This document shows positions 731 through 44,945 of a stretch of 64,000 nt of DNA, piece after piece. The position numbers and the translations under genes were made by a program. Source of the stretch: Dehalococcoidia bacterium (GTDB taxonomy: Bacteria; Chloroflexota; Dehalococcoidia; GIF9; UBA5629). The stretch spans positions 75,949 to 139,948 of the forward strand of contig DAOUCT010000003.1 in assembly GCA_034432055.1 (NCBI GenBank), given 5' to 3'. Positions within the stretch are counted from its first letter, which is position 1. Each line of letters opens with the position of its first letter. The notes beneath the pieces were generated by a model. It worked only from the letters and a program-made list of their open reading frames with translations. It was not told the DNA's origin and made no database searches.

Positions 731-3700
731 TTACTCACTACCGGTCCCGACCTCATCCTCTTTTTTCCTCCCACCCCACCTTCCCCTGATAAGTACCAGC
801 ACCACTGCTGCCAGAAGTGTATACACTGCTATCCCAGCCCATGCCAAGATAGCCACCGGTTCTCTATGCTCGGGCAATAGCTGTACCTGAGCCCTCACTG
901 TAGTGAAGCTGGCGACAGCGCTGGGCTGACTGGTGACTGGCTCCACCGCTTTCACCTGCCAGAAATAGGTCGTTCCAGAGTCAAGCTCACCATCGTATTT
1001 AAAAGCGTTACCCGCCACCTTGGTCTTTACCAGCACCTTTCTTAACTCAGCATCTTTAGCCAGTAAAAACTCATACTTGGTCACGCCGGGCAATGGCGTC
1101 CAGACAAAAGCTGGCGCTCGCACCACATCCTGGGCACCGCTAGCCGGTCTCAATAGCACAGGCTGCTGGTATTGAGTCTCTACAGGCACACCAATCTTGG
1201 TGGTAAAATACATCACTGCCGACCACGGACTGCGTACTATCTCACCTGTGGTAGCTCCCGTTGCCCGAACGCGCCAGTAATATTCGTGACCACACTCAAG
1301 ATTGCCGTAAAAGCCGATGGCTGAACCTTCAGCCATTTTGGTCACAAGTGATTTCTTCATCGGGTCCTGGGGGATCTCGAGAATGAGACCGGCTGTCTGC
1401 CCACCTGAGGGGAAAAATACCGCCGGTGATTCCTGGTCTTCAGGGAATATATTCACCTTTACCACCACGCGGGTGGTAAACTCTTTCTCCTTGGCTATCT
1501 GCATCTCATATACAGAGGCATAATCAAGTTGCCTCCAGCGGAAATCTATCTGCTTTGCCCGTCCGCTCACTGCATCACAGGATAATATGTCCCCGCTAGC
1601 CGGCAATATGGTCCACGGACCCACTCTGGCAAATATATCAGTATATACCCACAAGCAACCCTGTTCATTCTGCCAGTCATAGTCCCGATTATCAATTGCC
1701 CATAGCCAATTGTACTTTCCACCGGAGATTTTGAGTGAGCCCGGCTCACAGGTGAACTTCACCATACCAGTCTCCGGTAAACCAGCAATCAAATAGTCCC
1801 ACTCCAGTGATGGTGGCACAGGTGCACGGGAATACAAGGTGCGGTCCACACCAGTGCCGGTGAGAATATCGATACTCTCAGCTTTTGCCCATGCCCCATA
1901 CAGGACATCGTTACGCATCGCCAGACCATAGAAGGCGGAGTTCGGCGGACCGAGTTCTTCCCAATCGGTGCTTTCTCCAATCACCCAGCGGTAGACCTTG
2001 CCGACGGTGCCTGTGGCAATATCGTGGCTGGCAGCATATATGGTCTTATTTTCATCAAACCGGTCATCAGCGATAACATGCACATTCCCTTCGATGGGTA
2101 CCGGTTTCCTCTGCTCCAACGGAGGCAGAAACTTCGCCGCTGTCTGGGAGAAATCAGCATAAGCCACCCGCCCGTAGCCATCGGGGGGTCCCTTTTCCCC
2201 TACTATCACCCAGTCCTCCTCAGCGTCTTTCGCAACTTTACTTTTGGGATTCTTTAACGGCACGGCAATGGTATGATTAAAAGGGAACTCAGTGTACACT
2301 TTATTCTGCACCCATGTAGTACCTTCTTTTTCATAGTGGTAAACTGCGCTGCTGGATAGAGCATACACCACCTCATCATAAACCACTTTCCCCACCGCCA
2401 GGTCAACTATATCCATACCAAGCTCACCGGAAATCGTCTCCCACGATTGTCCTTCGTCTGGAGAATAGCCCACGTCTCTCCATTCAACCTCAGCGTAGGT
2501 GACCACTTCACTCCTTGATTTTTCCTCATAGTCTGGCTGCCTGACCCTGAGAAGTATTCCTTTATCGTTGTTATCGCTTTTAAGCCAAAGAACTCGTTCC
2601 CACATCTGTCCCGGCGGGTCACCTATACTGCGCCAGATGCTATACGAATAACCGCCGGCAGCAGTACTCAAGGAAGCTAAATATTGTATGTCATAATCCG
2701 GGATGATTTCCTCGCCTTTTTCAGGCTGGGGCACATTCAGCGCTGCCGTATCGCAGAGCTTTTGCATGTTGCTGTCTATCAGTCCCATCTGTGTCCAGCG
2801 TTCTCCCAACTGAGATAGTAACTCTTTTCCCACCATACTTAGAGCCACCTCATATTGAGCCGAGCAGGGGGTGACTGAAAAGGCGGACTCATCGCCGACC
2901 GTAGCTGGTGTCAGCAATGCACCAGGCCACTTATTTGGATCGCCGATGCTTGTGCCGCCGCTTGTCAATGCAGCCGAACTGGTGCCACAGTAAGCCCGCC
3001 TGCCGTCAGGGTGCCAGGCAAGAATTGCATTCGCATACCCCGTGCCAAAGCCACCGGTCGGCGAAGCGTATTCCGGCTGCGAGGGCTGCCAGCGTGGATA
3101 GGCATATGTGGGATTGGAGGTCCGCCATATCCGCACTCTTCCAGTAGCATATGGTATAACCTCACCGGCAAGCAGTTCACCCCCGCTGTAGTCACCGTAG
3201 TAGGCAATGCTGAAAATCCCGCCGCCGGGTGGGGATATGGAGGGTGTGATGGAGCGGACACGGGTGTTGTCGACCCGGTAAAGATAGCCAATATTGCCGC
3301 TGGTATTCAGGCTAATAAAATAGCGACGCCTTGGCGAATCAGGAGGAGATGTCGCCGCTAGAAAGTCCGATGGTAGCTCCAGACCAACAGTTATAAGCTG
3401 GTCCACCACCACTGTACTGCTTACTCTCACCGGATAGCCAGTATAACCGGCGGCATTATTCCACGTGGTCGTGCCAGCCACAGTATCCCGCTTGCCCAGA
3501 TTAAGATACGTGCCACGGATGGCAGGGGTTCCATCTCTAACTGCTACAACTATAAGCCCGGAATCTGATACGTAATTAGGGGAGAATTTTATCGCCACCA
3601 CGTCGCCAGCACCAGTCCCCGTCAGGTTCTGGTCCCGCCAGCTTGGTGCAGTAACTTCTGCCTGCAACACTAACACTTTCCCACCCGCGCTCCCATTTCT

Positions 3701-4240
3701 AGTGCCGATAGCGATATCCCGGTACTCGCCATATTTAAATGAAACATCGAGGCACCCGATAAACTCGTTATCAGCCAGCGTAAGCCCGGAATCAGCCGCA
3801 TCCCAGTTCTGTCCGCCGTCCTGCGAGATGAGCACTCTCTTCGGTCCCGCCACTGAGCTATCCGTAACCACCACCACGAAATTTACATCGTCCGGCGCTA
3901 TGACCACATTCCAGATATGCACAGCGCCTCCAGCGGCGCTGAACAACCTCTCAGAGATGTCCTGCCAGGTCACACCGCCATTGGTCGATTTATAAAGCTT
4001 CATGTTCGGCGTATCAGCCACATAGAAAGTCATACCGTCAACGCCGATAGCCACGGCATTTATCTCGCTGCCCGGGACAACGACATTGTCCTCCTTGCCA
4101 GGGGCGGGGGTATCCACAACCGACCAGGTCATCTTCCCGGGGTCGGCTGATACGAGGGCAACGTTTAGGGAAGAAAGCAAAGGGAACAAGATTAATGCAG
4201 CGAGAAGAACGCCCACCTTGATGGCTGCTGTCTTCCCCAT
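731..4240 (-). CDS. Large secreted BNR/Asp-box repeat plus FN3 surface protein with C-terminal TM anchor (S-layer-like)
   Basis: 1169-aa ORF. Hydrophobic N-terminal signal (VGVLLAALILFPLLSSL). Asp-box motifs STNGGVTWQD, SQDGGQNWD, SPDEGQSWE. FN3-like C-terminal modules (GHEYYWRVRA, TTYFWQVKAV). C-terminal helix plus basic tail (ILAWAGIAVYTLLAAVVLVLIRGRWGGRKK). Confidence 0.85.
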   Translation of the reverse strand: MGKTAAIKVGVLLAALILFPLLSSLNVALVSADPGKMTWSVVDTPAPGKEDNVVVPGSEINAVAIGVDGMTFYVADTPNMKLYKSTNGGVTWQDISERLFSAAGGAVHIWNVVIAPDDVNFVVVVTDSSVAGPKRVLISQDGGQNWDAADSGLTLADNEFIGCLDVSFKYGEYRDIAIGTRNGSAGGKVLVLQAEVTAPSWRDQNLTGTGAGDVVAIKFSPNYVSDSGLIVVAVRDGTPAIRGTYLNLGKRDTVAGTTTWNNAAGYTGYPVRVSSTVVVDQLITVGLELPSDFLAATSPPDSPRRRYFISLNTSGNIGYLYRVDNTRVRSITPSISPPGGGIFSIAYYGDYSGGELLAGEVIPYATGRVRIWRTSNPTYAYPRWQPSQPEYASPTGGFGTGYANAILAWHPDGRRAYCGTSSAALTSGGTSIGDPNKWPGALLTPATVGDESAFSVTPCSAQYEVALSMVGKELLSQLGERWTQMGLIDSNMQKLCDTAALNVPQPEKGEEIIPDYDIQYLASLSTAAGGYSYSIWRSIGDPPGQMWERVLWLKSDNNDKGILLRVRQPDYEEKSRSEVVTYAEVEWRDVGYSPDEGQSWETISGELGMDIVDLAVGKVVYDEVVYALSSSAVYHYEKEGTTWVQNKVYTEFPFNHTIAVPLKNPKSKVAKDAEEDWVIVGEKGPPDGYGRVAYADFSQTAAKFLPPLEQRKPVPIEGNVHVIADDRFDENKTIYAASHDIATGTVGKVYRWVIGESTDWEELGPPNSAFYGLAMRNDVLYGAWAKAESIDILTGTGVDRTLYSRAPVPPSLEWDYLIAGLPETGMVKFTCEPGSLKISGGKYNWLWAIDNRDYDWQNEQGCLWVYTDIFARVGPWTILPASGDILSCDAVSGRAKQIDFRWRQLDYASVYEMQIAKEKEFTTRVVVKVNIFPEDQESPAVFFPSGGQTAGLILEIPQDPMKKSLVTKMAEGSAIGFYGNLECGHEYYWRVRATGATTGEIVRSPWSAVMYFTTKIGVPVETQYQQPVLLRPASGAQDVVRAPAFVWTPLPGVTKYEFLLAKDAELRKVLVKTKVAGNAFKYDGELDSGTTYFWQVKAVEPVTSQPSAVASFTTVRAQVQLLPEHREPVAILAWAGIAVYTLLAAVVLVLIRGRWGGRKKEDEVGTGSE

Positions 4241-4260: not shown

Positions 4261-4432
4261 CGCAAAAACGCTTTTGTAGCCCTGGTGATGAAGAAATTTT
4301 TGGGGGAAATTAGGACTAATTGGCTATTATCTTTGTGACTAAATGTCCACGACCTAACTTGACAAACTAATTGCACATATGCCACAGTTAGTCTAACCTA
4401 TTAGCGAACAGACAGGACATTAGAGGAGTAGA

Positions 4433-5788
4433 ATGCTGGCTCGCCCCATAAGGGAAGAACCCCTGGTCAGGAAACTGATTGAACAGTTGCTCAGCGGCAA
4501 TATCGCCGAAGTCAAACCATTCGTCGACCTGTCATTAGAACTCGGCTTCACCTATCCTCAAATGGAAGAGCTACTCTCTCTGTCCGCACGCGAAAGCCTC
4601 AAGCTCCTTGAAGAATTGACTGCCAGTGCCTTGTTGGAAAAACACCCCCATAGCCGTCTTCTCTTCTGTCCTGAATGTCAATCGCCCAACATGAAAGCTG
4701 GCGATGGCTGCCCCAAATGCTACTCCTGGAACATCGCCAGAGGGCGGATACTGGAACATCTTCAGTGCGGCAATTTGAGTCTTGAAGAAGAGTATATCAC
4801 CGACGACAGGTATATCTGCCCTAAATGCCACAAGGAACTCAAATTCCTTGGTACCGATTATCAAAGTCTGGGGATAAACTACAAGTGCCACAGTTGCAAC
4901 AGCATATTCAGCCAGCCGCTGACCTCATGGCACTGCCTCAACTGCTCCCGGTTCTTCTTGGAAAAGGATGTCTCCGAGTCCTTCGTCTACTCTTACCGCC
5001 TCAATGAAGAGAAAAGGCGCTGGCTTGAATTCGAACTGGGACCAAAAGAGCGCTTGCTCAGTTTTCTCAGGAGTCGCGGCTACGAGGTGGCAGAGAATGC
5101 CATCGCCAGCGGCACAAGCAAATCAGGCACCGGGCACATCTTCGATATCGTTGCCCGACGCGACGACGGTTTTATCACTCATACCACAGTCATAGACGCG
5201 CTTATCGATGGCAGAGCACCAGAGGTCGGGCTGGAGCGGGTATTCAGCTATGATAATAAGACATATGACCTGGGAATACATGACAAGGTGCTTGTAGTCA
5301 TTCCCAGGCTGTCGCCACCAGCAAAACAATTTGCGCTGCGGCAAAAAATACGCCTTTTTGAGGACACAGAACTGGAAAGGTTTCTTGCTTCACCAGCCTC
5401 TGCTAGCACCGGTAGCCCATCAAAGGCAAAAGTCCACCACCCTAAATTCAAGTCAAAGACACAGTTAATCGACCACCTTAAAGCCACCGGCTACAGGGTG
5501 GAAGAACAGGCAACGATTCAGGGCAGGTCAGGTGCCAGACACCGCTTTCATGTCCTTGGTTATTACGATGATGGCATCCTTACACACACCTTAGCCATCG
5601 GCATCTTCAGTTCGGACACCGAGGTCGGGTTCGATGCCGTCTCTGCCTTCGATACCCGGGCTTACGATGCCAATATACATGACAAAGCCATACTGGTCTA
5701 CCCGCGGCTCAGCACCGAAGCCAGGCAGTTCGCTGATTACCAGCGGATAAGGGTCATCGAGGTTGACAGTACCGATGCCTTGAAATAG
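4433..5788 (+). CDS. Cys-rich multi-Zn-ribbon protein with tandem duplicated C-terminal domain (degenerate restriction-endonuclease-like by pattern); first gene of the pilus operon
   Basis: 451-aa ORF with a gaggag SD upstream. Eleven Cys lie in aa 79-170, mostly as CxxC pairs (CPEC..CPKC, CPKC..CHSC, CLNC). There is a clear internal duplication: GYEVAE..GHIFDIVARRDDGFITHT..IHDKVLVVIPRLS versus GYRVEE..RHRFHVLGYYDDGILTHT..IHDKAILVYPRLS. Confidence 0.8.
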   Translation: MLARPIREEPLVRKLIEQLLSGNIAEVKPFVDLSLELGFTYPQMEELLSLSARESLKLLEELTASALLEKHPHSRLLFCPECQSPNMKAGDGCPKCYSWNIARGRILEHLQCGNLSLEEEYITDDRYICPKCHKELKFLGTDYQSLGINYKCHSCNSIFSQPLTSWHCLNCSRFFLEKDVSESFVYSYRLNEEKRRWLEFELGPKERLLSFLRSRGYEVAENAIASGTSKSGTGHIFDIVARRDDGFITHTTVIDALIDGRAPEVGLERVFSYDNKTYDLGIHDKVLVVIPRLSPPAKQFALRQKIRLFEDTELERFLASPASASTGSPSKAKVHHPKFKSKTQLIDHLKATGYRVEEQATIQGRSGARHRFHVLGYYDDGILTHTLAIGIFSSDTEVGFDAVSAFDTRAYDANIHDKAILVYPRLSTEARQFADYQRIRVIEVDSTDALK

Positions 5789-5813
5789 AATATAACTTAT
5801 ACGAAGTCCTGAG

Positions 5814-7382
5814 ATGGCAGAAGAAGTAGTAAAAGAGAAAAGCGATAACGGGGTGGCTAACGGGGGGCTGCTCAGCGGCGTTGCCCGGCTAAATGTCTTG
5901 CTACAGGCGCCGACGCCGGAGGCACTGCAACTAGTGCCAGAGAGCATTGCCCGCAAGTACAATGTCGTCCCGCTTGAAGTCCGCAACAACACGCTCCGCG
6001 TGGCAATGACAGACCCCGACAATATCCTGGCGATAGAAGCCATTTCAGCGCGTGCCAAAAAGAGGGTCGAACCCGTAGCAGCCGAGCTCGCTGACATCCA
6101 GGAGGCGATAGACTTCAACTACAAAGCCTTTGGCGATATCGCTCATCTTTTCGGCACCGCTGCAGCACCCGCTGAAACAGAGACTCCAGAAAAGCTCGCC
6201 ACCGCTGCTATAGCCGAGGACGCTCCGGTAGCCAGGGCATTAAACCGCATCCTCGAAGAAGCGGTGAAGTCCAGGGCTTCCGACGTCCACATCGAACCCG
6301 AGGTTGACAGGCTCCGTATCCGATTCCGCATCGATGGTATTCTCCACGAAATAAGCTCCCTGCCGCTGGGGACTCACGGACCGCTTATCTCCCGGGTTAA
6401 AATCCTGGCGAATATGAACATCGCCGACCCGCGCCGTCCCCAGGATGGGCAGTTCTCCTTCAGTACACGAGGGAAGGAGATAGACCTTCGTGTTGCCACC
6501 ATCGCTACCGTCCATGGCGAGATGGCAGTGCTCCGCTTGCTGGACAAATCGATTGCTGTGCTCTCGCTGCGCCAGCTTGGTCTGTTGCCCGAGAGTCAGG
6601 AAAAGCTGGAGCGGATGCTCATGGTGCCCTATGGCATGGTGCTTATAAGTGGACCTACCGGCGCTGGCAAGACCACCACCCTTTACGCTGCTATCAACTC
6701 CCTGGACAGGGTGGGACGCAAAATCATCACCATTGAAGACCCTGTGGAGTACCGCTTTGAAGGCATAAACCAGATACAGATCAACCCCCGTGCTGGCATC
6801 ACCTTTGCCAGCGGACTCCGCGCTATTGTGCGTCTCGATCCCGATGTCATACTTGTGGGCGAGATCCGTGACCGTGAGACTGCCGAGATCGCCATCCAGT
6901 CAGCCCTCACCGGGCACCTCGTCCTCTCCTCTGTGCACGCCAACGACACGGTGGGCGTCCTCTTCCGTCTGCTCGACCTCGGCATCGAACCATTCCTTAT
7001 CTGCTCGTCAATCGTCGGTATCGTTGCGCAGAGGATGGTGCGCCGTGTCTGCCCCCACTGTGCCCGGATGACCACAGCACCAATGGTCGAACAATTAGCC
7101 TACCATAGAGAGCTGGGCGAAGAGCGTTCAGAATTCCTCTACGGCACCGGCTGTAGAGCCTGTACCTACACCGGCTACCTGGGCAGGACGGGGATCTTCG
7201 AGATACTGGAGCTTACCGACGAACTCAAACGAATGCTGGTCGCCGGTACCACGCCAGCCGAACTGCGTGCTAAAGCTATAGAGCAGGGAATGGTCACACT
7301 GGCTAAAGACGGCATGCTAAAAGCCCAGAAAGGCATCACTACACCGTATGAAGTATTGCGCAACGCTTACACGGCAGGTTAG
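5814..7382 (+). CDS. pilB: Type IV pilus assembly ATPase PilB (GspE family)
   Basis: N-terminal T2SSE_N-like region; Walker A GPTGAGKTTT; Asp box ITIEDPVEY; Walker B DPDVILVGEIRD; His box TGHLVLSSVHAN; tetracysteine CPHC...CRAC. Confidence 0.93.
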   Translation: MAEEVVKEKSDNGVANGGLLSGVARLNVLLQAPTPEALQLVPESIARKYNVVPLEVRNNTLRVAMTDPDNILAIEAISARAKKRVEPVAAELADIQEAIDFNYKAFGDIAHLFGTAAAPAETETPEKLATAAIAEDAPVARALNRILEEAVKSRASDVHIEPEVDRLRIRFRIDGILHEISSLPLGTHGPLISRVKILANMNIADPRRPQDGQFSFSTRGKEIDLRVATIATVHGEMAVLRLLDKSIAVLSLRQLGLLPESQEKLERMLMVPYGMVLISGPTGAGKTTTLYAAINSLDRVGRKIITIEDPVEYRFEGINQIQINPRAGITFASGLRAIVRLDPDVILVGEIRDRETAEIAIQSALTGHLVLSSVHANDTVGVLFRLLDLGIEPFLICSSIVGIVAQRMVRRVCPHCARMTTAPMVEQLAYHRELGEERSEFLYGTGCRACTYTGYLGRTGIFEILELTDELKRMLVAGTTPAELRAKAIEQGMVTLAKDGMLKAQKGITTPYEVLRNAYTAG

Positions 7383-7387
7383 TCATC

Positions 7388-8593
7388 ATGAACTATTCTT
7401 ATGTAGCTTACACTGAAGGTAAAAAAATGGTCAAAGGCAAGCTGGCGGCTATTGATGAGAAGGCAGCCATAGACATGCTCACCACAGTCGGCTACCACGT
7501 TGTCAGTATCAAGCCTGAGACCCGGCTTTTGCCCGACCTCAGCCGTTTCCTGCAAGCCCCGGTGAAGAAAGAAGCGCTCGTCCTCTTTTCCCGCCAGCTA
7601 GCACTCTTACTGGAAGCAGGAGTGGGCATCATCAGCGCCCTGGAACTATTGCAGGCACAGACATCGGACAAAACGCTCAAGACCGTCCTGTCCAAAGTCA
7701 TCGATGACCTCCGCGCCGGCAGGTCGTTCTCAGCGGCGCTTGCCCAGCACCAGTATGCTTTTCCGCCGATATATAGCCGCATGATAGGCGTCGGTGAACA
7801 CACCGGCGCTCTGGAGTCAGTCCTGCGCAGCCTTGCTGACCATATAGAGCGAGAGCTGACTGCCATGGGTAAATTGAAACAAGCGCTCATGTATCCCGCC
7901 CTTGTCGCTCTCATGACGGTCGTGGTGGGCGCCGTCATGATATTCGTACTTCTGCCACCTGTCACCAAGATGTTCTCTGCACTCGGCGGCAAACTTCCCA
8001 TAACCACCCGACTCCTTATCTCCAGCATGGACTTAGTTATGGACTACGGACTATATCTCATCGTCGGTCTTGTGGGACTGCTTGCGCTGCTGTTTCTTTT
8101 CTTCAGGACTTCCCGTGGACGCTACATCCGCGACAGCATCCTGTTGAGAATACCCATGCTGGGACGCCTTCTACATCTGACGGAGCTTGCCCGCTGCTGT
8201 CGAAACCTGGCATTGCTGTTCCGCTCCGGTCTGCCCATGACCGAGGTGATAAAGCTCACCACTCAAGCGACCGGCAATGCAGTCATCGTCGAGGCATTAA
8301 AACAGGTAGAATACGATATGATGAGAGGACGGGGGCTTTCAGCCCCGATGCGGCAGAGAAAGGTCTTCCTGCCCCTGATGGTGGAGATGACCAAGGTGGG
8401 CGAGGAGACTGGTGCCCTTGATGAGACATTAACTGTGGTCGCTGAAAACTTTCAAATCGAGGCAGACCGGCGCACACAGACCGTGCTCGGAATGATAGAG
8501 CCGGTGATGACCATCATCATAGGTGGTGCCGTTGGCTTTCTCGCCCTCTCCGTCTTTATGCCCATCTACGGGGCACTACAACTGGTGAAATAG
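7388..8593 (+). CDS. pilC: Type IV pilus platform protein PilC (two T2SSF domains)
   Basis: 401 aa with two repeats, each followed by TM helices (..GRSFSAALAQH..IGVGEHTGALESVL and ..GRGLSAPMRQ..TKVGEETGALDETL). Sits directly after pilB. Confidence 0.92.
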   Translation: MNYSYVAYTEGKKMVKGKLAAIDEKAAIDMLTTVGYHVVSIKPETRLLPDLSRFLQAPVKKEALVLFSRQLALLLEAGVGIISALELLQAQTSDKTLKTVLSKVIDDLRAGRSFSAALAQHQYAFPPIYSRMIGVGEHTGALESVLRSLADHIERELTAMGKLKQALMYPALVALMTVVVGAVMIFVLLPPVTKMFSALGGKLPITTRLLISSMDLVMDYGLYLIVGLVGLLALLFLFFRTSRGRYIRDSILLRIPMLGRLLHLTELARCCRNLALLFRSGLPMTEVIKLTTQATGNAVIVEALKQVEYDMMRGRGLSAPMRQRKVFLPLMVEMTKVGEETGALDETLTVVAENFQIEADRRTQTVLGMIEPVMTIIIGGAVGFLALSVFMPIYGALQLVK

Positions 8594-8601
8594 AGCTGAA
8601 G

Positions 8602-9027
8602 ATGAAACGTTCAAGTAGACAAAGAGTCCCTCGCTTTAGAGGCATAATGAGAGACCAGATAGGCATGACCCTCATCGAGACCCTCATCGCTATGTCCATA
8701 CTGTCGATAATCGCCGGCGCTTTTCTCACCAGCATGACCACCGCCGCCCAGACATCTTTCATCAACCACAAAAGGGCAACCGCCGAAAGCCTGGCTAAGT
8801 CCCAGATGGAATACATCAAGCGGCAGGACTACAAAGTCGACGGTGACTACGAAAAGCTGACAGGACTGCCACAGGGCTATGACCTGGACATCGTCGCCGA
8901 ACGGCTCAACCCCAGGGGCGATAGCACCATTAACGATGACGGCTTGCAGAAGATAATAGTTACCGTCACTTACCACAAAGACCCGGTATTGACGGTGGAA
9001 GGGTATAAATGTTTCCAGCGGTATTGA
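8602..9027 (+). CDS. Minor pilin / pseudopilin with class III (prepilin) signal
   Basis: Prepilin cleavage/methylation motif G|MTLIETLIAMSILSIIAG with Glu at +5. The start may instead be the ATG at 8647, giving leader MRDQIG. Confidence 0.8.
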   Translation: MKRSSRQRVPRFRGIMRDQIGMTLIETLIAMSILSIIAGAFLTSMTTAAQTSFINHKRATAESLAKSQMEYIKRQDYKVDGDYEKLTGLPQGYDLDIVAERLNPRGDSTINDDGLQKIIVTVTYHKDPVLTVEGYKCFQRY

Positions 9028-9515
9028 GACAATACAAGAGTGAACTCGGCTTCACCCTCATCGAAGTCCTGACGGCACTGGCGATACTGGCGATGGTAAT
9101 GGGACCAGCCACAGCCGCAGTTATCACCCTGATGAACCTCAGTTCGCGGAGCACCGATTTGAATGTCCACCTGCGCCAGGTGCAGAACGCCGGCTTCTGG
9201 ATTTCCCAGGATGCCCTGATGGCACAGACCGTGACCACTGGCAGCCCCGGGGTTCTCCTCACGCTCAGGTGGACCGACTGGGACGGCAACAACTATACCG
9301 TTGACTACCTGCTGGAGGAGAACACCCTGCAGCGCCAGCTCAATGGGGGTGGGCTTTCAGTGATCGCTGAATATATCGACCCCGATGCGACCAGCTGCCA
9401 GTGGGATAACGAGCACGGACAGCTTACAGTAACCATCTCTTCGCTGGGCAGCAGCAAGACCCGGGTACAAAAAGTATATACAGTCAGACCGCGAGCTTGG
9501 GTGGGAGGAAGCTAA
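9009..9515 (+). CDS. Minor pilin / pseudopilin with class III signal
   Basis: Leader MFPAVLRQYKSELG|FTLIEVLTALAILAMV with Glu at +5. Overlaps the upstream gene by 19 nt, which suggests translational coupling. Confidence 0.8.
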   Translation: MFPAVLRQYKSELGFTLIEVLTALAILAMVMGPATAAVITLMNLSSRSTDLNVHLRQVQNAGFWISQDALMAQTVTTGSPGVLLTLRWTDWDGNNYTVDYLLEENTLQRQLNGGGLSVIAEYIDPDATSCQWDNEHGQLTVTISSLGSSKTRVQKVYTVRPRAWVGGS

Positions 9516-11575
9516 TGAGGCTGAGGCAGTCCCTTAAAAGAGTCCTTACCAGCCAGTCAGGGCAAGCCCTGCCCATGGCGCTCATCTTGCTCATCGTCGG
9601 CGGGCTGGTCATCGTCCCCCTGCTCAACTTCATCAGCGGTAACATGAAGGCAGCACAGGTCATCGAGGACAAGGTGTACGATTTCTACGCCGCTGATGCC
9701 GGTGCCGAAGACGGGCTGTGGAAAGTGAGGTATGACTACCTCCCCGACTGGCTTATGGGCGACTGGACAGAGGAGACCTATTCCCACGAGCCCTATTCTT
9801 ACACAATGTATGACAACGATAACCCCAGCGATATAACCGCTGTGAACGGGCGCCAGGTGGCTGTGGAGATAAAGCCCATCTGGGTGCTGCAAGACCTCGA
9901 GGAGCCGAGCTACCAGCAGGGGCGCACGCCCGATGACCGCCTTATCACCTACGGTAATAAGACCGACCAGACACCTGATGGCAGTCAGGGCATCTATACC
10001 ATAAGCATAATGTACGATGGCTCGCTGGGGACACTGCTGGTCCAGAGAATCGGCTGCTGGCTGCCCGCCGGTTTCGACTACGTGGAAGGCTCCAGCAACC
10101 TGGAACAAGACCCGGGGGAGTCTTATTACCGCGTGCCCCAGGTCTCCAGCCATAAGAGCGGCACCACCGTGGTCTGGGACTACGGCACCGGCATCAACTA
10201 TAACAGCCTGCCCACCCAAGGGACAAAGAAAGTCGTTACCTTCAGGTTCACCCCCAATGAGGACATGCTCGACGCCTTCTCCTGGACACGGACGGGCACT
10301 GACGCCATCAAGCTCTCCTGGGACACCTCCAAGAAGATAATCGAGATCGTTTCCCGTGCCCCCAGTGGTGAAAGCAAACAGACCACCGTCACCTGCCACG
10401 TCATCAAGAAGGAGTTCCAGCCTCTGGGCTCCGCTTTAAACGGCGACTACGCCGCCAGTGGCATCACACTGATGCGCGACCACGATAACGATGGTGGCTG
10501 GTGGTGGGACAGGGACAAACGCGAAAGGCTGTATAACGAGACAGCGGTCACCCTAGCATCGGGACAGCCGGTGTCCGTCCCCGAGGATGCCACTGTGGAA
10601 CGTATCTTCCTCTACTGGTCGGGCTGGAAGTGCAAGCCGTGGAACATATGGGGCTACAGTCAGGAACAGCGCAACCTGTTGCCCAGCCAGAAGGGAGTCA
10701 ACAAGGTGAATTTCAGGGTGAAGGTGGGGGCAACCGAGTTCTCCACCACCGTCACCGCCGGCGTATCACAGGTATTGCCCGATGGGACTTCTGGCGACCC
10801 CCACGGCTGGTCATACTCCTGCTTCGCCGACGTCACCAATCAGGTGGTGGACTTCTTTAAAGCCCAAGGCGTACCCTTCTACGGTAATGGCACCTACACC
10901 GTAGGGCACTGGGATGTCAGCCCTAACTATAACGCCTCAACCTACCGCTACGCACTCTACAACTGGAAAGATAACCACCAGAACGAGACTATAGCCGGCT
11001 ATACCAGATACCCCCTGGGCAGCCCCATGGACGGGCGGCAGCGTGACTCAGGCTACGAAAACGACGGCGAGCAGGACGAGTGGTCGCACGCCGCCTGGTC
11101 GGTAATCATCATCTATTCCAGCCCGTCCACGCTGGGACACCACCTCTATCTCTACGATGAGTTCCGCACCTGCGTCCAATACGGGACTATATCTTTCACC
11201 ATCAGGGGCTTCCTCGCCCCGGACGATGTCGCCAATGACCCTCAAGCCGCCAGGATGACCGTATTTGTCGGTGAGGGCGACTACCACTACAGCGGAGACC
11301 GCTTCCAGGTGAACGGGTACACGCTCAGTGATGGCTACTACTCGAACAACGTCTGGAACGGGATATCAAATGTGCTGGGGCAACAGGCGACTACCCATGA
11401 AGGCATCGACATCGATACTTTCATCGCCGGCGGCGGCGACATCATCAAGCCCGGCGATACCGAGGCGCAGATCAGGATGCCCACCAGCACCGATGTCTGG
11501 CACCTGGTGTACATCATCCTCTCTTTCCGCAGCGAGATAACCGTCGGCGGCGTCATCGACTTTAAGGTGGAGTGA
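9515..11575 (+). CDS. Large pilus-associated protein with PilX-N-like hydrophobic N-terminus and Trp/Tyr-rich C-terminal domains (candidate tip/adhesin subunit)
   Basis: I place the start at ATG 9515 (gggaggaag SD; TAATG overlap with the upstream stop) rather than the track's TTG at 9497. The N-terminus GQALPMALILLIVGGLVIVPLL ... FYAADAGAEDGLWKV matches the PilX_N pattern (hydrophobic helix, then A-x-x-AEAG-like). The remaining ~600 aa have no motif I recognise. Confidence 0.75.
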   Translation: MRLRQSLKRVLTSQSGQALPMALILLIVGGLVIVPLLNFISGNMKAAQVIEDKVYDFYAADAGAEDGLWKVRYDYLPDWLMGDWTEETYSHEPYSYTMYDNDNPSDITAVNGRQVAVEIKPIWVLQDLEEPSYQQGRTPDDRLITYGNKTDQTPDGSQGIYTISIMYDGSLGTLLVQRIGCWLPAGFDYVEGSSNLEQDPGESYYRVPQVSSHKSGTTVVWDYGTGINYNSLPTQGTKKVVTFRFTPNEDMLDAFSWTRTGTDAIKLSWDTSKKIIEIVSRAPSGESKQTTVTCHVIKKEFQPLGSALNGDYAASGITLMRDHDNDGGWWWDRDKRERLYNETAVTLASGQPVSVPEDATVERIFLYWSGWKCKPWNIWGYSQEQRNLLPSQKGVNKVNFRVKVGATEFSTTVTAGVSQVLPDGTSGDPHGWSYSCFADVTNQVVDFFKAQGVPFYGNGTYTVGHWDVSPNYNASTYRYALYNWKDNHQNETIAGYTRYPLGSPMDGRQRDSGYENDGEQDEWSHAAWSVIIIYSSPSTLGHHLYLYDEFRTCVQYGTISFTIRGFLAPDDVANDPQAARMTVFVGEGDYHYSGDRFQVNGYTLSDGYYSNNVWNGISNVLGQQATTHEGIDIDTFIAGGGDIIKPGDTEAQIRMPTSTDVWHLVYIILSFRSEITVGGVIDFKVE

Positions 11576-11891: not shown

Positions 11892-12530
11892 ATGATGGCA
11901 CCAGCCGAAAAAGCTGACAAAGAGAAGAAGAAAAAGGGCATACTGGAAAGGCTGCCCAGACTTAGCCGTACCAGCCAGACAATACTCATCCTGGCAATGC
12001 TGGTCGCTATGTTCGTCCCCACCTACCTCATCTATTACCAGCAGCCCAAGACCCGTGCCGCGCTGGAGTCTTCTCTTGCCACTTTGCAAAAAGTGCTGGC
12101 GGCTGAGCAGACACCGAAAGAGCGGCTGGAAGCTGACCTGAAAAGGGCACAGGAGCAGCTTGCCGCTGCCAGAGCCCTCTACCCCGACCCCAACCATGTG
12201 CCCGAGCTGGTAAACAGCCTTATCGGGCTGGCAGAACAGAACGATATCGATGTCACCGAGACGAAGGTCACCGCCTCCAAGCTGCCACCGCCTAAAGACA
12301 CTAAAAAGGATAAGGCACCGGCTGAGAGGATCGAGGACATACTGACTGCAGAGATGACGCTGAAGGGGCAGGTATCGCATTTCCAGAACTTCCTGCTGGC
12401 GCTGGATAAACAGTTCCCCACCATCCGCATTAAAAAAGCCGCTTTCACCATCTCCAGCGAGGAGGGCAAGGAGGATACCTGCACGCTATCTCTGCTGGTT
12501 TTCTGCTATCCGGCTGAGGAGAACAAGTGA
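11892..12530 (+). CDS. pilO: PilO-like pilus alignment protein (TM helix, coiled coil, C-terminal alpha/beta domain)
   Basis: 212 aa. Basic N-terminus, one TM helix (ILILAMLVAMFVPTYLIYY), a coiled-coil stretch and a C-terminal MTLKGQVSHFQNFLLALDKQFPTIRIKK pattern typical of PilO. The call rests on architecture and context only. Confidence 0.6.
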   Translation: MMAPAEKADKEKKKKGILERLPRLSRTSQTILILAMLVAMFVPTYLIYYQQPKTRAALESSLATLQKVLAAEQTPKERLEADLKRAQEQLAAARALYPDPNHVPELVNSLIGLAEQNDIDVTETKVTASKLPPPKDTKKDKAPAERIEDILTAEMTLKGQVSHFQNFLLALDKQFPTIRIKKAAFTISSEEGKEDTCTLSLLVFCYPAEENK

Positions 12531-13957
12531 TAGTCCTGGACTTTACTGACAGCGAAATAAAGACACTGGTGGTGAGAAGAAAAAAAGTGGAGCTTGCCAC
12601 CACCCTGTCGCTTGAGCCTGGCTGGGTCAAGGACGGCGCCATTGCTGAGCCCGATGCTATCAGCCAGCGGCTGCGTGAGTTCCTCAGCTCCAATAACATC
12701 ACTGAAACAGAGGCGATGAGCACCGTAAGCGGTCAGCACACCATCTACCGCATGGTCAACATCCCCCGCGTCCCGCCCAAGCTGCTTGAGAACGCCGCCG
12801 CAATCGAGCTGGAAAAGAACATGCCGGTATCGCTGGAGGAGCTTTACACCACATGGCAGGCGGTAGACATCTCCCAGGAGGAGATAGCGCTCTGCATGGT
12901 CGGTACCCGCCGCGACATTGTGGACACCATGATAAGAACACTGCGCACCGCCGGTCTGCGCCCTGTGGTCTTTGAGCCCAGACCACTGGCTGTGGCACGG
13001 CTGTCCGAAGACCCCCACGCCATCATCATCGATGCCCAGCCTTCCAGTTTCGATATCGTCATCGTCCTCAGCGGCACCCCTGTGATACTGCGCAGCGTGC
13101 CCTTCCCGGACCAGGACATGTACAGCAGGTCGGCTGGAGTCAAGGAAGAGCTGGAGAGGACAATCAACTTCTACAATGCCAGCCATAAAGAGGCACCGAT
13201 AACGCCCCAGAGCCGCATACCAATCATCCTCAATGGTGAACTCCCTGGGCTGGCTGAAGCCACCGGGTACCACTGCAAGCCCCCCCTAGCCCCCTTCACC
13301 TACCCACCGCTCGACCTGACCAAATTCGCCGCCGGTGCCGGGCTGGCTCTCCGGGTGCTACAACCAAAGACATCCCCGATGCGCCTGACGGTCAATGCCA
13401 TACCCGAGACTTACCTGCCGAAGCCACGCCCCGTAGGACAGATTGCCTTCTGGCTATTCACCCTCCTCGCTGTCATCGCTTTTCTCTGGCTGGCTTCGCT
13501 CACCATAGCCGAGGTGAGGCAGACGGCAGAGCTAAACTCACAGGTCGAAGTGCTGCAGGCGCGGGTAAATGTACGCCGGGGTACGGAGAAGGTGCTCAAA
13601 GAGCTCCAGGCAAAGCTGGATGCCGCGCAGACCAGATTAAACGTGTTTCAAAAGCCGCTCGATGTTGCCGGGGCACAGCGCGCCAGCGTCATCGCCGATA
13701 TCCGCGAGGTCACTACCGCCAACACCAGCGGCACGCTTAAACTTAAGACCATAACCCTGACCGACAAAGCCGCCACCGGCACCGATGTCGCCCCCCAGAT
13801 CGAAGTGGAAATAAACGGCACCGCCGCCTCCCAGAGCACCATCCTGGACTACACCAGGAAGCTCCGCGACAGCGGCAGGTTCTCCCAGGTCACCATCAAA
13901 GAGATGAAAGAGGTCAAATACAACGAGTGGCAGTTCACCCTGTCGCTCGTCCAGTAG
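12527..13957 (+). CDS. pilM: PilM-PilN fusion (actin-like ATPase domain, TM helix, coiled coil, PilN-like C-terminus)
   Basis: 476 aa. GTG start overlaps the upstream stop (GTGA). The N-terminus IVLDFTDSEIKTLVV resembles the PilM phosphate-1 strand. After ~aa 300 come a TM helix (IAFWLFTLLAVIAFLWLASLTIA), a coiled coil and a PilN-like end (INGTAASQSTILDYTRKLRDSGRFSQVTI). Confidence 0.75.
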   Translation: MIVLDFTDSEIKTLVVRRKKVELATTLSLEPGWVKDGAIAEPDAISQRLREFLSSNNITETEAMSTVSGQHTIYRMVNIPRVPPKLLENAAAIELEKNMPVSLEELYTTWQAVDISQEEIALCMVGTRRDIVDTMIRTLRTAGLRPVVFEPRPLAVARLSEDPHAIIIDAQPSSFDIVIVLSGTPVILRSVPFPDQDMYSRSAGVKEELERTINFYNASHKEAPITPQSRIPIILNGELPGLAEATGYHCKPPLAPFTYPPLDLTKFAAGAGLALRVLQPKTSPMRLTVNAIPETYLPKPRPVGQIAFWLFTLLAVIAFLWLASLTIAEVRQTAELNSQVEVLQARVNVRRGTEKVLKELQAKLDAAQTRLNVFQKPLDVAGAQRASVIADIREVTTANTSGTLKLKTITLTDKAATGTDVAPQIEVEINGTAASQSTILDYTRKLRDSGRFSQVTIKEMKEVKYNEWQFTLSLVQ

Positions 13958-14509: not shown

Positions 14510-14696
14510 GGCGTGGTAGCCAGCCGAAGCTAACGAATTGGTCACATTGGAGTATAGTACTTTCGTCCTAGTACCTTTGTCGAGCGCCGCTATTTGCCGC
14601 CTCCGCAGGCTATTTCAGAAGCCCGCACGGCGATGTCTGATGTCGGGTTTCTGGTATTCTGCTATTATAGTACCCGTAAAAATCGAGGTGGGTTAT

Positions 14697-15497
14697 ATGG
14701 ACAGGGAGATTTCGGTCATCAGCATTGAAGTGGTAAGGGAGCTTTCCCGAGCCAAGCACCAGCCTCCCACAGAGGTGGAGGTTATGGCTCTGAAGCAGGG
14801 CATCGTGCCGCAGCGCTACCTGCGCAACATCGGCACCATCGGAGCTGAGGGGCAGATTAGACTGCTCCGGTCGCATATGGCGGTGGTCGGTGCCGGCGGG
14901 CTAGGCGGTACCATCGCCGAGCTTCTGGCAAGGATGGGGGTGGGGCATATAATCATCATCGATGACGACCGCTTTGCCGAACAGAACCTGAACCGTCAGC
15001 TAATGTGCACCGAAAGGAACATCGGCAAGTATAAAGCAAAGGTCGCCGCCGCTAGAGTAAGGCGGATAAATTCTGCAGTCAGGGTTACTGTCCGCACCGA
15101 AAGGCTGACTGTGGACAACGCCAGCCGCTTGCTCCGCGGTGCCGAGGTGGTGCTGGACGCGCTGGACAACCTGTCCTCGCGGCTCGCCGTGGAGAAAGCC
15201 TGCAGGGAGTTGAAGATACCCTTCGTCCACGGTAGCATCGCTGGCTTCTGCGGTCAACTGATGACCGTCTACCCTGAAGACCCGGGGCTACAGGCTATTT
15301 ATAGCGCAACCAGTCCCCCGGAGACAGGCATCGAGACCAGGCTGGGCAACCCTGCTACCACACCGGCGATAATCGCCGCCCTGGAGGTACAGGAGGCAAT
15401 TAAGATAATCACCGGCATCGGCGAACCCGTCCGCAACCGGTTGCTGGTATTCGACTTGCTTACCGCAGAGGTGCACAGCATAAACATCGGGAGGTAA
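14697..15497 (+). CDS. ThiF/MoeB/HesA-family E1-like adenylyltransferase
   Basis: RYLRNIGTIGAEGQIRLLRSHMAVVGAGGLGGTIAELLARMGVGHIIIIDDD is the E1 Rossmann signature. I place the start at ATG 14697 (gaggtg SD 7 nt upstream), not the track start 14538. There are no CxxC zinc motifs and no rhodanese domain. Confidence 0.8.
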   Translation: MDREISVISIEVVRELSRAKHQPPTEVEVMALKQGIVPQRYLRNIGTIGAEGQIRLLRSHMAVVGAGGLGGTIAELLARMGVGHIIIIDDDRFAEQNLNRQLMCTERNIGKYKAKVAAARVRRINSAVRVTVRTERLTVDNASRLLRGAEVVLDALDNLSSRLAVEKACRELKIPFVHGSIAGFCGQLMTVYPEDPGLQAIYSATSPPETGIETRLGNPATTPAIIAALEVQEAIKIITGIGEPVRNRLLVFDLLTAEVHSINIGR

Positions 15498-15884: not shown

Positions 15885-16649
15885 GTGGACTATTTCTGGT
15901 CGTTCCTGTTCTTTGCCATCGGAGCCTGCATGGGCAGTTTCCTCAATGTCATCGCCGACAGGCTGCCACAAGGTAAGTCCATCGTCTCACCCCCTTCCCA
16001 CTGTGAGGACTGCCAGCGCCGGCTCTCCGCAGATGACAACATCCCCATATTCAGTTACCTCTGGCTGAGAGGACGCTGCCGTTATTGCCAGGCAGCCATC
16101 CCGCAGCGCATATTCTGGGTAGAGCTGGGCACAGCGGTGCTATTCGCCTTCCTCTACTGGGAATACGGTTTCGGCTATCTCTTGCCGGTGATGCTGGTCT
16201 ACGGCTGCATCTTCATCCTCCTCACCGTCATCGACCTGGAGCACGGGCTGCTGCCCAATAAGATCGTCTATCCGGCGATAGCCATCGCCTTTGCAGTCGC
16301 TGTGGCTTCGCAGTTCCTGCACTTGCCGCTCCTCCCCGACCTGAAGAGTGCCGCTATCGCTGGGACTATCGGTTTCGTCTTTCTGCTCATACCAGCCCTC
16401 ATCTCCCGGGGGATGGGCTGGGGAGATGTCAAGCTGGCGGCTTTCATCGGCTTGGCGACCGGATTCCCGCTGGTGCTGCTGACGCTGTTTATCAGCATCG
16501 TCAGCGGCGGGCTTGTCGCCGGCATCCTGCTCCTGCTCAAAATCAAAGGGCGCAAGGACGCAATCCCCTTCGGTCCTTTCCTGTCGCTGGGGACGCTGTT
16601 AACACTGCTCTGGGGAAACAACATCCTCGCCTGGCTGGGGTTCGCCTAG
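15885..16649 (+). CDS. pilD: Prepilin peptidase / N-methyltransferase PilD (peptidase A24)
   Basis: GSFLNVIADRLP, then CEDC...CRYC zinc motif, then GWGDVKLAAFIG active-site Asp motif. Multi-TM. GTG start. Confidence 0.9.
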   Translation: MDYFWSFLFFAIGACMGSFLNVIADRLPQGKSIVSPPSHCEDCQRRLSADDNIPIFSYLWLRGRCRYCQAAIPQRIFWVELGTAVLFAFLYWEYGFGYLLPVMLVYGCIFILLTVIDLEHGLLPNKIVYPAIAIAFAVAVASQFLHLPLLPDLKSAAIAGTIGFVFLLIPALISRGMGWGDVKLAAFIGLATGFPLVLLTLFISIVSGGLVAGILLLLKIKGRKDAIPFGPFLSLGTLLTLLWGNNILAWLGFA

Positions 16650-18774: not shown

Positions 18775-18842
18775 AAAAAGGCACAGGGTATTGCGTCTTC
18801 CAGCGACCTCTGTTATACTATATAACAGTAAACCTTTAAGTC

Positions 18843-18856
18843 AGTCCAGCGAGGCT
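18843..18856 (+). promoter_or_regulatory. PyrR-binding loop in the pyr operon leader
   Basis: AGTCCAGCGAGGCT matches the PyrR RNA consensus ARUCCAGAGAGGYU at 13 of 14 positions. It is embedded in hairpin ccagc-gag-gctgg. Confidence 0.7.
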
Positions 18857-18897
18857 GGCAAGGGTAATTATGAGTAAAGAGTATTTTGCCGGTGTAA

Positions 18898-20530
<1,633 letters not shown>

Positions 20531-44768: not shown

Positions 44769-44799
44769 AAAAATAAAAACCGACCCTTTTCGGGTCGGT
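44769..44799 (-). terminator. Intrinsic terminator inside the 5' leader of the surface-protein operon
   Basis: The minus strand reads accgaccc-gaaaa-gggtcggt followed by ttttatttttg: an 8-bp GC-rich stem with a long T-run. Confidence 0.7.
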
Positions 44800-44945
44800 C
44801 TCACTACTCGCTCTACACCAGCCAAGTGACCGCATTACAGCCGGTGCTTCATCGCATCCCGACGTAGACCGGTCAAATTAGAGACTAACTTCTACCCTTC
44901 CTTGTTCCTCCTGCTTACCTCCGTCTTCACCAACGCACTATATGT
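44769..44945 (-). ncRNA. Candidate structured leader RNA / sRNA (promoter-to-terminator unit, ~175 nt), class unknown
   Basis: Bounded by a near-consensus promoter (44951-44979) and a strong terminator (44769-44799). It contains no convincing ORF, and possible helices are gaccg/cggtc and caccggc/gctggtg. It lies 120 nt upstream of the 43655-44650 gene. Confidence 0.4.

What the first reader, a model, noticed from the sequence alone, without database searches (positions are those of the whole stretch)
4433..5788. Cys-rich Zn-ribbon protein with a tandem, apparently inactivated nuclease-fold duplication as first gene of the pilus operon
What the sequence shows:
- The 451-aa protein sits 25 nt upstream of pilB on the same strand.
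- It has a helical N-terminus, then 11 Cys in about 90 aa arranged as CxxC pairs. That suggests at least two Zn ribbons.
- It then has two copies of a ~105-aa domain that align residue by residue: GY(E/R)V(A/E)E...G..H.F.(I/V)......DDG(F/I)(I/L)THT......(V/I)G(L/F)(E/D).V..(Y/F)D...YD..IHDK..LV.PRLS..A(K/R)QFA.

Interpretation: the strand pattern around HIFDIVA ... VIDAL resembles the PD-(D/E)xK (Mrr/Hjc-like) core. However, the (D/E)xK lysine is missing in copy 1, and the Asp is also missing in copy 2. A binding or regulatory role therefore seems more likely than a catalytic one.

No canonical type IV pilus component I know of has this architecture. Candidate roles are a pilus-operon regulator, a PilB partner or a DNA-binding accessory for uptake.
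Basis: partly seen in the sequence, partly recalled or inferred. Interest (0 to 1): 0.65.

Follow-up and report, generated by a model that had tools for sequence, protein, structure and literature searches.

The report
Dead-nuclease zinc-ribbon partner of PilB
The first gene of this Dehalococcoidia type IV pilus operon encodes an uncharacterised protein (a TackOD1 triple zinc-ribbon domain plus two catalytically dead restriction-endonuclease-fold domains). In related genomes the dead-nuclease pair is fused directly to the pilus motor ATPase PilB, so it is most likely a PilB-directed regulator or adaptor, not a nuclease.

Summary
ORF 4433-5788 (+) encodes 451 aa and ends 25 nt before pilB. Residues 13-190 are a full TackOD1 domain (PF18551, E 1.7e-39): 11 Cys as five CxxC plus one HxxC, which implies three Zn sites. 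Two 42%-identical ~110-aa domains follow (E 5e-26).

AlphaFold (pLDDT 90), Foldseek and a profile search place both copies in the Mrr-type PD-(D/E)xK fold; the closest structure is AF1548 (PDB 1y88). The (D/E)xK lysine is hydrophobic in 168 of 169 family domains, and copy 2 here lacks all three catalytic residues. Both copies are therefore dead as canonical nucleases.

All 80 genome loci recovered are from Dehalococcoidia/Chloroflexota assemblies. Of the 83 loci analysed (these 80 plus 3 metagenome contigs), 71 carry pilus genes in the flank, and only one locus with full flanks has none.

The tandem dead-nuclease pair also occurs in two other forms:
- fused to the N-terminus of PilB (8 sequence clusters, 6 loci);
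- as a stand-alone gene directly upstream of pilB.

This marks it as the constant PilB-linked module. TackOD1 was already noted in thaumarchaeal pilus loci, and its function is unknown.

Best reading: a cytoplasmic PilB regulator or adaptor (confidence about 0.5). Main rival: a transcription factor. I rate it a new variant of a known but uncharacterised family, of moderate interest.

The parts
4433..5788 (+). Whole gene: TackOD1 + 2x inactive REase-fold protein, 451 aa
4433..4633 (+). aa 1-67: acidic three-helix, winged-helix-like N-terminal part of TackOD1
   Evidence: Helices at 10-21, 42-48 and 52-64. Only weak local fold similarity to MarR and TFIIE-alpha winged helices. Family mean pI 4.5. 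No HTH Pfam hit.
4634..5002 (+). aa 68-190: triple Zn-ribbon cluster (C79/C82/C93/C96; H109/C112/C129/C132; C152/C155/C168/C171)
   Evidence: Pfam TackOD1 covers aa 13-190, E 1.7e-39. All Cys and H109 are invariant. All-beta hairpins in the model.
5042..5386 (+). aa 204-318: inactive REase-fold domain, copy 1. Retains D238 and D255; the Lys position is L257
   Evidence: Mrr_cat match at aa 208-317; fold; residue mapping
5387..5449 (+). aa 319-339: basic, low-confidence linker between the two copies
   Evidence: pLDDT 53-63; pI about 10
5450..5779 (+). aa 340-449: inactive REase-fold domain, copy 2. H373 replaces the Asp; G390-I-F392 replaces (D/E)xK
5814..7382 (+). PilB (MshEN + T2SSE assembly ATPase), the proposed target
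7388..8593 (+). PilC platform protein
8602..9515 (+). Two overlapping prepilin-type (N_methyl) minor pilin genes (8602-9027 and 9009-9515)
9497..11575 (+). 692-aa protein with no Pfam match, conserved in the same position in related pilus loci
12527..13957 (+). PilM-PilN fusion
15885..16649 (+). PilD prepilin peptidase
731..4240 (-). 1169-aa BNR/Sortilin-like protein, the conserved divergent neighbour of the gene in type A loci
4315..4392 (.). Operator-like cluster of four ACTAANTG copies (3 direct, 1 inverted) in the promoter region of the gene

Best explanation
The gene encodes a cytoplasmic regulatory or adaptor subunit of the type IV pilus machine. It is neither an enzyme nor a canonical structural part.

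Its C-terminal half is a tandem pair of PD-(D/E)xK (Mrr-type) domains that have lost the catalytic lysine. I infer that this pair serves as a protein-docking or regulatory module directed at the assembly ATPase PilB. In related genomes the same pair is tethered to PilB in cis by a flexible Pro/Ala-rich linker. In others it is a separate gene directly in front of pilB. Here it would act in trans.

The N-terminal TackOD1 module (an acidic winged-helix-like bundle plus three Zn ribbons) is the variable, signal-coupling part. In other family members it sits behind a receiver (REC) domain. In some loci it is absent and Roadblock/LC7 genes or a REC-GerE response-regulator gene sit beside the stand-alone pair. 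The protein would therefore couple an upstream signal or partner to PilB activity or localisation.

Shown: the domain composition, the fold, the loss of catalytic residues, the conserved pilus linkage and the fusions.
Inferred: physical binding to PilB and the direction of regulation.
For: Domains and fold.

Loss of the catalytic Lys: the position is hydrophobic and is Lys in only 1 of 169 domain instances. D238 is kept in 76%.

Rosetta-stone fusions:
- The L002 PilB carries the tandem pair at its N-terminus, 42% identical over 235 aa to this protein, E 4e-58.
- An intact 792-aa fused ORF exists in L016.
- Six genome loci carry the fusion.
- Eight 50%-identity cluster representatives have the architecture 2x iREase - MshEN - T2SSE.

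Stand-alone 2x iREase genes sit directly upstream of pilB in L092 and L091 and overlap a fragmented PilB gene in L093.

Linkage: 71 of 83 Dehalococcoidia loci have pilus genes in the flank. In 32 loci pilB is co-oriented downstream, usually 2-60 nt away. Only one locus with full flanks has no pilus gene.

An archaeal-type pilus locus also starts with a TackOD1-iREase gene. Published notes of TackOD1 in thaumarchaeal pilus loci agree (PMC4858521, PMC5847659).

The winged-helix-like part and the iREase domains are acidic or neutral, which fits protein binding better than DNA binding.
Against:
- In type B loci (29 of 83) the gene is not co-transcribed with pilB. It precedes a pilin gene and diverges from pilD.
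- Distant TackOD1-iREase genes sit beside GT2 polysaccharide synthases or unrelated genes. A dedicated PilB adaptor does not explain this easily.
- PilB in this window lacks an iREase domain, so a homotypic iREase-iREase contact cannot be the mechanism here.
- Strictly conserved polar residues (S231, H235, D238, K276, D279) suggest a ligand or substrate site, not just a docking surface.
Confidence: 0.5

Rival explanations
1. It is a transcription factor of the pilus operon. The TackOD1 winged-helix/Zn-ribbon module, or the pseudo-dimeric dead-nuclease pair, binds operator DNA. The protein then autoregulates the operon it heads.
For: - It is the first gene of the operon, next to a divergent gene.
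- Family members carry REC domains, as DNA-binding response regulators do.
- Distant members head unrelated surface-polymer operons (GT2 synthases), as a portable regulator would.
- There is weak fold similarity to MarR and TFIIE-alpha winged helices.
- Four ACTAANTG repeats are confined to 78 nt of its own promoter and are partly conserved in relatives.
Against: - The winged-helix-like segment is acidic (pI 4.5) and the iREase domains are near neutral.
- There is no HTH Pfam match, even at E <= 10.
- A DNA-binding module fused to PilB makes little sense.
- Loci with the stand-alone iREase pair already carry dedicated HTH_17 and REC-GerE regulators.
- Galperin et al. report REC-wHTH-TackOD1 proteins, that is, an extra wHTH beside TackOD1 (PMC5847659).
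Confidence: 0.25
2. The dead-nuclease pair is a small-molecule or nucleotide sensor: the former active site is reused as a ligand pocket. It controls whichever output it is attached to, TackOD1 here and PilB in the fusions.
For: - Polar residues at the former active site are strongly conserved although catalysis is lost: S231 96%, D279 97%, H235 84%, D238 76%, K276 75%.
- The module is combined with different outputs.
- The organism uses c-di-GMP: PilB has an MshEN domain and the window holds a c-di-GMP-II riboswitch.
Against: - I found no precedent for ligand sensing in an Mrr-type domain.
- D279 is also present in the active-type relative AF1548, so it may be structural.
- No ligand can be inferred.
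- This reading overlaps with the best explanation rather than excluding it.
Confidence: 0.15
3. It is an active nuclease or restriction-type enzyme, as NCBI names some relatives. A variant is a DNA-processing or DNA-binding accessory for pilus-mediated DNA uptake.
For: - Mrr_cat scores above its gathering cut-off.
- WOR-3 homologs are annotated 'restriction endonuclease'.
- Copy 1 keeps two acidic residues, D238 and D255.
- Active-site plasticity is known in this superfamily (own knowledge).
Against: - The catalytic Lys is absent family-wide, and copy 2 has none of the three residues.
- There is no PADLOC hit and no methyltransferase or defence context.
- The domains are acidic or neutral.
- Some copies match Pfam's 'inactive REase' model NA-iREase1.
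Confidence: 0.05

Closest known systems
TackOD1 / arCOG06883 proteins (Pfam PF18551; Galperin et al. 2018, PMC5847659; Makarova et al. 2016, PMC4858521)
   Same: Full-length TackOD1 match with the defining 11 Cys (five CxxC plus HxxC). Encoded in a type IV pilus locus. Function unknown.
   Different: This one is bacterial (Dehalococcoidia) and has no REC domain. It carries two C-terminal dead-REase domains. In my sample 143 of 150 family representatives carry at least one such domain. The two papers, in the passages I read, describe only a double Zn-ribbon or output domain and do not mention it.
AF1548 (PDB 1y88) and the Mrr_cat family (PF04471)
   Same: Same alpha-beta-beta-beta-alpha-beta(-alpha-beta) fold: rmsd 2.4 A over 103 columns and profile E 1.2e-5. 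The first catalytic Asp is conserved.
   Different: AF1548 has D...E-C-K. Here the Lys position is Leu (copy 1) or Phe (copy 2). The domain is duplicated in tandem and fused to Zn ribbons.
NA-iREase1 (PF22722, NACHT-associated inactive restriction endonuclease)
   Same: An REase fold without catalytic residues, used as a non-catalytic module in signalling proteins. Some family members score on this model.
   Different: The window protein itself does not reach that model. The context is a pilus motor, not a NACHT/STAND conflict system.
Known PilB-directed regulators (PilZ/FimX, the MshEN c-di-GMP domain, MglB-type Roadblock proteins; own knowledge)
   Same: Proposed to work like them: a cytoplasmic factor encoded with, or fused to, the assembly ATPase that couples signals to pilus extension. 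One relative locus pairs the iREase module with Roadblock/LC7 genes.
   Different: No sequence or fold relationship, and the mechanism is untested.

Membership tests
TackOD1 (PF18551) | HMM score above the gathering cut-off over the whole model | tested here: met
   135.8 bits against a cut-off of 32; aa 13-190 cover model positions 11-188 of 188
TackOD1 (PF18551) | 11 conserved Cys forming five CxxC plus one HxxC (PMC5847659) | tested here: met
   C79/82, C93/96, H109/C112, C129/132, C152/155 and C168/171, all invariant in 64 homologs
TackOD1 (PF18551) | Acts as the output domain of a response regulator (REC fusion) | tested here: not met
   No REC domain in this protein. REC-TackOD1-iREase relatives do exist.
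PD-(D/E)xK / Mrr_cat (PF04471) | Sequence match above the gathering cut-off | tested here: met
   27.7 bits against a cut-off of 21, aa 208-317. Copy 2 is recognised only through its similarity to copy 1.
PD-(D/E)xK / Mrr_cat (PF04471) | alpha-beta-beta-beta-alpha-beta core fold | tested here: met
   Model pLDDT 89.9 with this topology in both copies. Foldseek hits: 1y88 at E 7e-6, plus NucS, Can2, MspJI, AspBHI and FokI.
PD-(D/E)xK / Mrr_cat (PF04471) | Catalytic D ... (D/E)xK residues | tested here: not met
   Copy 1 has D238, D255, L257. Copy 2 has H373, G390, F392. The Lys position is Lys in 1 of 169 family domains.
Canonical type IV pilus components (PilM/N/O, PilT, PilZ, pilins) | Match to any Pfam or NCBIfam pilus family | tested here: not met
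   No such hit for this protein. Its neighbours hit PilB, PilC, PilM/N, PilD and N_methyl.
Restriction / anti-phage defence systems | Match to a defence-system model, or a methyltransferase/defence neighbourhood | tested here: not met
   No PADLOC hit. The neighbourhoods are pilus genes.
Winged-helix transcription factors | Recognisable HTH/wHTH domain with a basic recognition surface | tested here: inconclusive
   No HTH Pfam hit at E <= 10. Only weak local Foldseek similarity (E >= 0.3). The segment is acidic.

The most novel reading that the evidence does not exclude
TackOD1-iREase proteins are a previously unrecognised class of type IV pilus motor regulators shared by Thaumarchaeota and Chloroflexota. 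Their dead-nuclease module binds PilB-type ATPases directly, in cis in the fusions and in trans here. It may sense a nucleotide-like ligand in the former active site, giving a new signalling input to pilus extension alongside PilZ and MshEN.
Probability: 0.3. Interest if true: 0.7.

Novelty: new variant of a known kind. Interest (0 to 1): 0.55.

Why it matters
Type IV pili of Chloroflexota and of ammonia-oxidising archaea are almost unstudied, and TackOD1 has stayed a 'function obscure' domain since 2018. This analysis gives three testable leads:
- TackOD1 nearly always comes with a dead REase-fold domain.
- That domain, as a tandem pair, is repeatedly fused to or placed beside PilB.
- The arrangement spans bacteria and archaea.

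If the PilB contact is confirmed, it would add a new kind of motor regulator. It would also be a clear example of a nuclease fold recycled as a signalling module. In addition, it would correct database names such as 'restriction endonuclease' and 'RNA-binding Zn-ribbon protein' for this family.

Tried and rejected
- Searching PDB sequences with the single full-length protein gave only spurious PPR-repeat hits.
- Scanning each isolated repeat against Pfam gave nothing. Mrr_cat is detected only in the full-length scan.
- A broad alignment of distant ~320-aa relatives was too divergent to seed a genome scan, so the scan used the close family only.
- Foldseek of TackOD1 alone found no significant structural neighbour: best E 0.04, with weak winged-helix and TFIIE-alpha/MCM hits.
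- The PADLOC scan was negative.
- The N-terminal 82 aa hit no HTH family at E <= 10.
- Literature searches for Dehalococcoidia pili or PilB, for 'Thaumarchaeal output domain' and for iREase found nothing specific.
- I considered an EndA-like Tyr/His/Lys RNase site (Y217, H235, K276). No splicing endonuclease appeared among the top fold hits, so I did not pursue it.

Full report
**Observation.** The window holds an ORF at 4433-5788 (+) of 451 aa. It starts at an ATG preceded by GAGGAG and ends 25 nt before the next gene. The downstream genes form a complete type IV pilus (T4P) locus:
- PilB (MshEN + T2SSE), 5814-7382;
- PilC, 7388-8593;
- two prepilin-type genes, 8602-9515;
- a 692-aa protein with no Pfam match, 9497-11575;
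- a PilM-PilN fusion, 12527-13957;
- PilD, 15885-16649.

The protein has 11 Cys between residues 79 and 171, arranged as five CxxC plus H109-x-x-C112. All are invariant in 64 homologs, which implies three Zn sites. The C-terminal half is a tandem repeat: 42% identity over 106 aa, E 5e-26.

**What the domains are.** Pfam assigns aa 13-190 to TackOD1 (PF18551, E 1.7e-39, nearly the whole model) and aa 208-317 to Mrr_cat (27.7 bits against a cut-off of 21). An AlphaFold2 model built on 64 homologs is confident (pLDDT 89.9, pTM 0.75). It shows three parts:
- a three-helix N-terminal bundle;
- an all-beta Zn-ribbon region;
- two copies of an alpha-beta-beta-beta-alpha-beta-alpha-beta domain.

Foldseek against the PDB returns PD-(D/E)xK nucleases: AF1548/1y88 (E 7e-6, rmsd 2.4 A over 103 columns), NucS/EndoMS, Can2, Cdn1, MspJI, AspBHI, FokI and the REase-like domain of Rpb5. 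A profile of 35 domain instances finds AF1548 by sequence alone (E 1.2e-5). That alignment places D238 on the Asp of AF1548's 'EIDVVA' and D255-A-L257 on its 'E-C-K'.

I tallied 169 domain instances from the 50%-identity representatives:
- The Lys position is hydrophobic, and is Lys only once.
- The preceding acidic position is D/E in about half and Gly in 29%.
- S231 (96%), D279 (97%), H235 (84%), D238 (76%) and K276 (75%) are kept.

In this protein, copy 2 has H373 and G390-I-F392, so none of the three catalytic residues remain. The domains are therefore REase-fold but not canonical nucleases. Some relatives even score on Pfam's 'inactive REase' model NA-iREase1.

TackOD1 modelled alone (pLDDT 90.8) has no significant structural neighbour. 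Only weak local matches link its first ~65 residues to winged helices (MarR, TFIIE-alpha). That segment is acidic (family mean pI 4.5), the Zn part is mildly basic (8.1), and the REase-like domains are near neutral (about 6).

**Family and distribution.**
- The word-indexed search finds 348 homologs. The 120 listed are 429-476 aa, and the few that carry organism names are Dehalococcoidia/Chloroflexota.
- The exhaustive representative search finds 2268 clusters at E <= 1e-3.
- A genome scan returns 80 loci, all labelled Dehalococcoidia, Dehalococcoidales or Chloroflexota except one labelled Brocadiaceae. The best is 94% identical (Dehalococcoidia bacterium H62_637). The window therefore comes from a Dehalococcoidia bacterium.

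The architectures seen are:
- (a) TackOD1 + 2x iREase, the type found here;
- (b) REC-(Zn ribbon)-TackOD1-iREase(-iREase) response regulators;
- (c) many ~320-aa TackOD1 + 1x iREase proteins, including ones from Nitrososphaerales and WOR-3, the latter named 'restriction endonuclease' by NCBI;
- (d) 2x iREase - linker - MshEN - T2SSE, i.e. PilB fusions (P0168, P0171, P0179, P0181, P0187, P0191, P0231, P0268);
- (e) stand-alone 2x iREase proteins.

In total, 143 of the 150 best representatives contain at least one iREase domain. TackOD1 and the dead-nuclease domain are thus a near-obligate pair. The published descriptions of TackOD1/arCOG06883 that I read do not mention this (PMC5847659, PMC4858521).

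**Genomic context.** I analysed 83 Dehalococcoidia loci:
- 32 have the window's order: BNR/Sortilin-like gene divergent, then this gene, pilB, pilC. The gap to pilB is usually 2-60 nt.
- 29 have a second order: pilD divergent upstream, this gene followed by a pilin gene, and a convergent pilB-pilC-...-pilMN-pilT operon.
- 10 have pilus genes in other arrangements.
- 12 show no pilus gene. Eleven of these have under 3 kb of downstream sequence before the contig ends (two of them still show the type-A BNR/Sortilin neighbour upstream). Only L063 has full flanks and no pilus gene.

Six loci (L002, L011, L012, L014, L015, L016) hold a second tandem iREase pair fused in frame to PilB. Two were checked in detail:
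- The L002 fusion is 42% identical over 235 aa to this protein's C-terminal half, E 4e-58.
- L016 has an intact 792-aa fused ORF.

Stand-alone 2x iREase genes also sit with pilB:
- L092: HTH_17, REC-GerE, 2x iREase, pilB, pilC, pilins.
- L091: Roadblock/LC7, 2x iREase, Roadblock/LC7, iREase-PilB, pilC.
- L093: as L092, but the PilB gene is fragmented.

An archaeal-type locus (L089) starts with TackOD1-iREase, followed by a KaiC-like ATPase, T2SSE and two T2SSF genes. This matches the published note that arCOG06883 lies in thaumarchaeal T4P loci.

The linkage is not universal in distant relatives:
- A WOR-3 gene lies beside lipoprotein signal peptidase.
- A Nitrososphaerales gene precedes a GT2 polysaccharide synthase.
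- A REC-TackOD1-iREase gene also precedes a GT2 synthase.

**Mechanism.** The tandem dead-nuclease pair is the element that stays with PilB across three architectures: fused to PilB, stand-alone upstream of pilB, and fused to TackOD1 upstream of pilB. Its N-terminal or neighbouring partner varies (TackOD1, REC-TackOD1, Roadblock/LC7, REC-GerE). In the one fusion read in full (L002), the pair is joined to PilB by a long Pro/Ala-rich linker, as expected for a tethered interaction or regulatory module.

I therefore propose that the protein is a cytoplasmic regulator or adaptor of the pilus motor. Its iREase pair would dock on PilB or on the PilB platform, and its TackOD1 module would provide the signal or partner interface. 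Confidence is about 0.5, and the binding itself is inferred.

The main rival is a transcription factor (0.25). It is supported by the gene's position at the head of operons, the REC fusions, the non-pilus contexts and an operator-like repeat array in its promoter. It is weakened by the acidic winged-helix-like segment, the absence of any HTH signature, the PilB fusions, and the presence of dedicated regulators in loci that hold only the iREase pair.

A ligand-sensor reading of the conserved former active site (0.15) is compatible with the main model. An active nuclease or a DNA-uptake accessory is unlikely (0.05).

**Comparison and novelty.** The protein is a bona fide TackOD1 family member and, by sequence and fold, a member of the Mrr-type REase fold. 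It fails the catalytic-residue test. TackOD1's presence in archaeal pilus loci is already published, but its function is not known. I found no report of the following in the searchable literature:
- the constant dead-REase partner domain;
- the large Dehalococcoidia subfamily with a tandem pair at the head of bacterial T4P operons;
- the iREase-PilB fusions.

I rate this a new variant of a known, uncharacterised kind, with interest 0.55.

Noticed in passing
window 4315-4392: The octamer ACTAANTG occurs four times in the whole 64-kb window (three direct, one inverted), and all four lie within 78 nt just upstream of the gene, around a TTGACA. The array is intact in L004 (four exact copies) and partly kept in L005 and L008 (one and two exact copies, others diverged). 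It looks like an operator array for an unknown regulator. The enrichment upstream of homologs (0.59 against 0.045 per kb) is confounded by AT-rich intergenic composition.
   Followed up: partly
window 5763-5791: A near-consensus sigma-70-like promoter (TTGACA-17-TAGAAT, 11 of 12) overlaps the last codons and the stop of the gene, 22 nt before the pilB ATG. Both hexamers are kept in L004, L005 and L008. pilB may therefore also have its own promoter.
   Followed up: partly
window 44784-44868 (-): A c-di-GMP-II riboswitch (64.9 bits, E 3e-12) lies upstream of a minus-strand cluster: a 331-aa protein with an N-terminal signal-peptide-like segment (43655-44650), then 395-aa and 452-aa proteins that also end in a hydrophobic C-terminal stretch. 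These are probably surface proteins. This shows that c-di-GMP controls surface structures in this organism.
   Followed up: partly
window 731-4240 (-): A 1169-aa BNR/Sortilin-Vps10-like protein is the conserved divergent neighbour of the gene in the type A loci whose upstream flank is present (36-84% identity). A small HTH_17 gene sometimes lies between them (L001, L002). It may be functionally tied to the pilus locus.
   Followed up: partly
L091 5373-9694: A relative locus places two Roadblock/LC7 (MglB-like) genes around a stand-alone 2x iREase gene, directly upstream of an iREase-fused PilB. This hints at small-GTPase-style polarity control of this pilus type.
   Followed up: no
L086 8001-10452; L088 8001-11786: In one archaeal and one further (unassigned metagenome) contig, TackOD1-iREase genes sit directly upstream of a GT2 (chitin/cellulose-synthase-like) glycosyltransferase. 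This is a second recurrent context, also concerned with surface polymers.
   Followed up: no
window 18829-18974 (+); 14538-15497 (+): A PyrR-binding leader (60.4 bits) lies further downstream. A ThiF-family gene is inserted between the 170-aa ORF that follows pilM-N and pilD.
   Followed up: no
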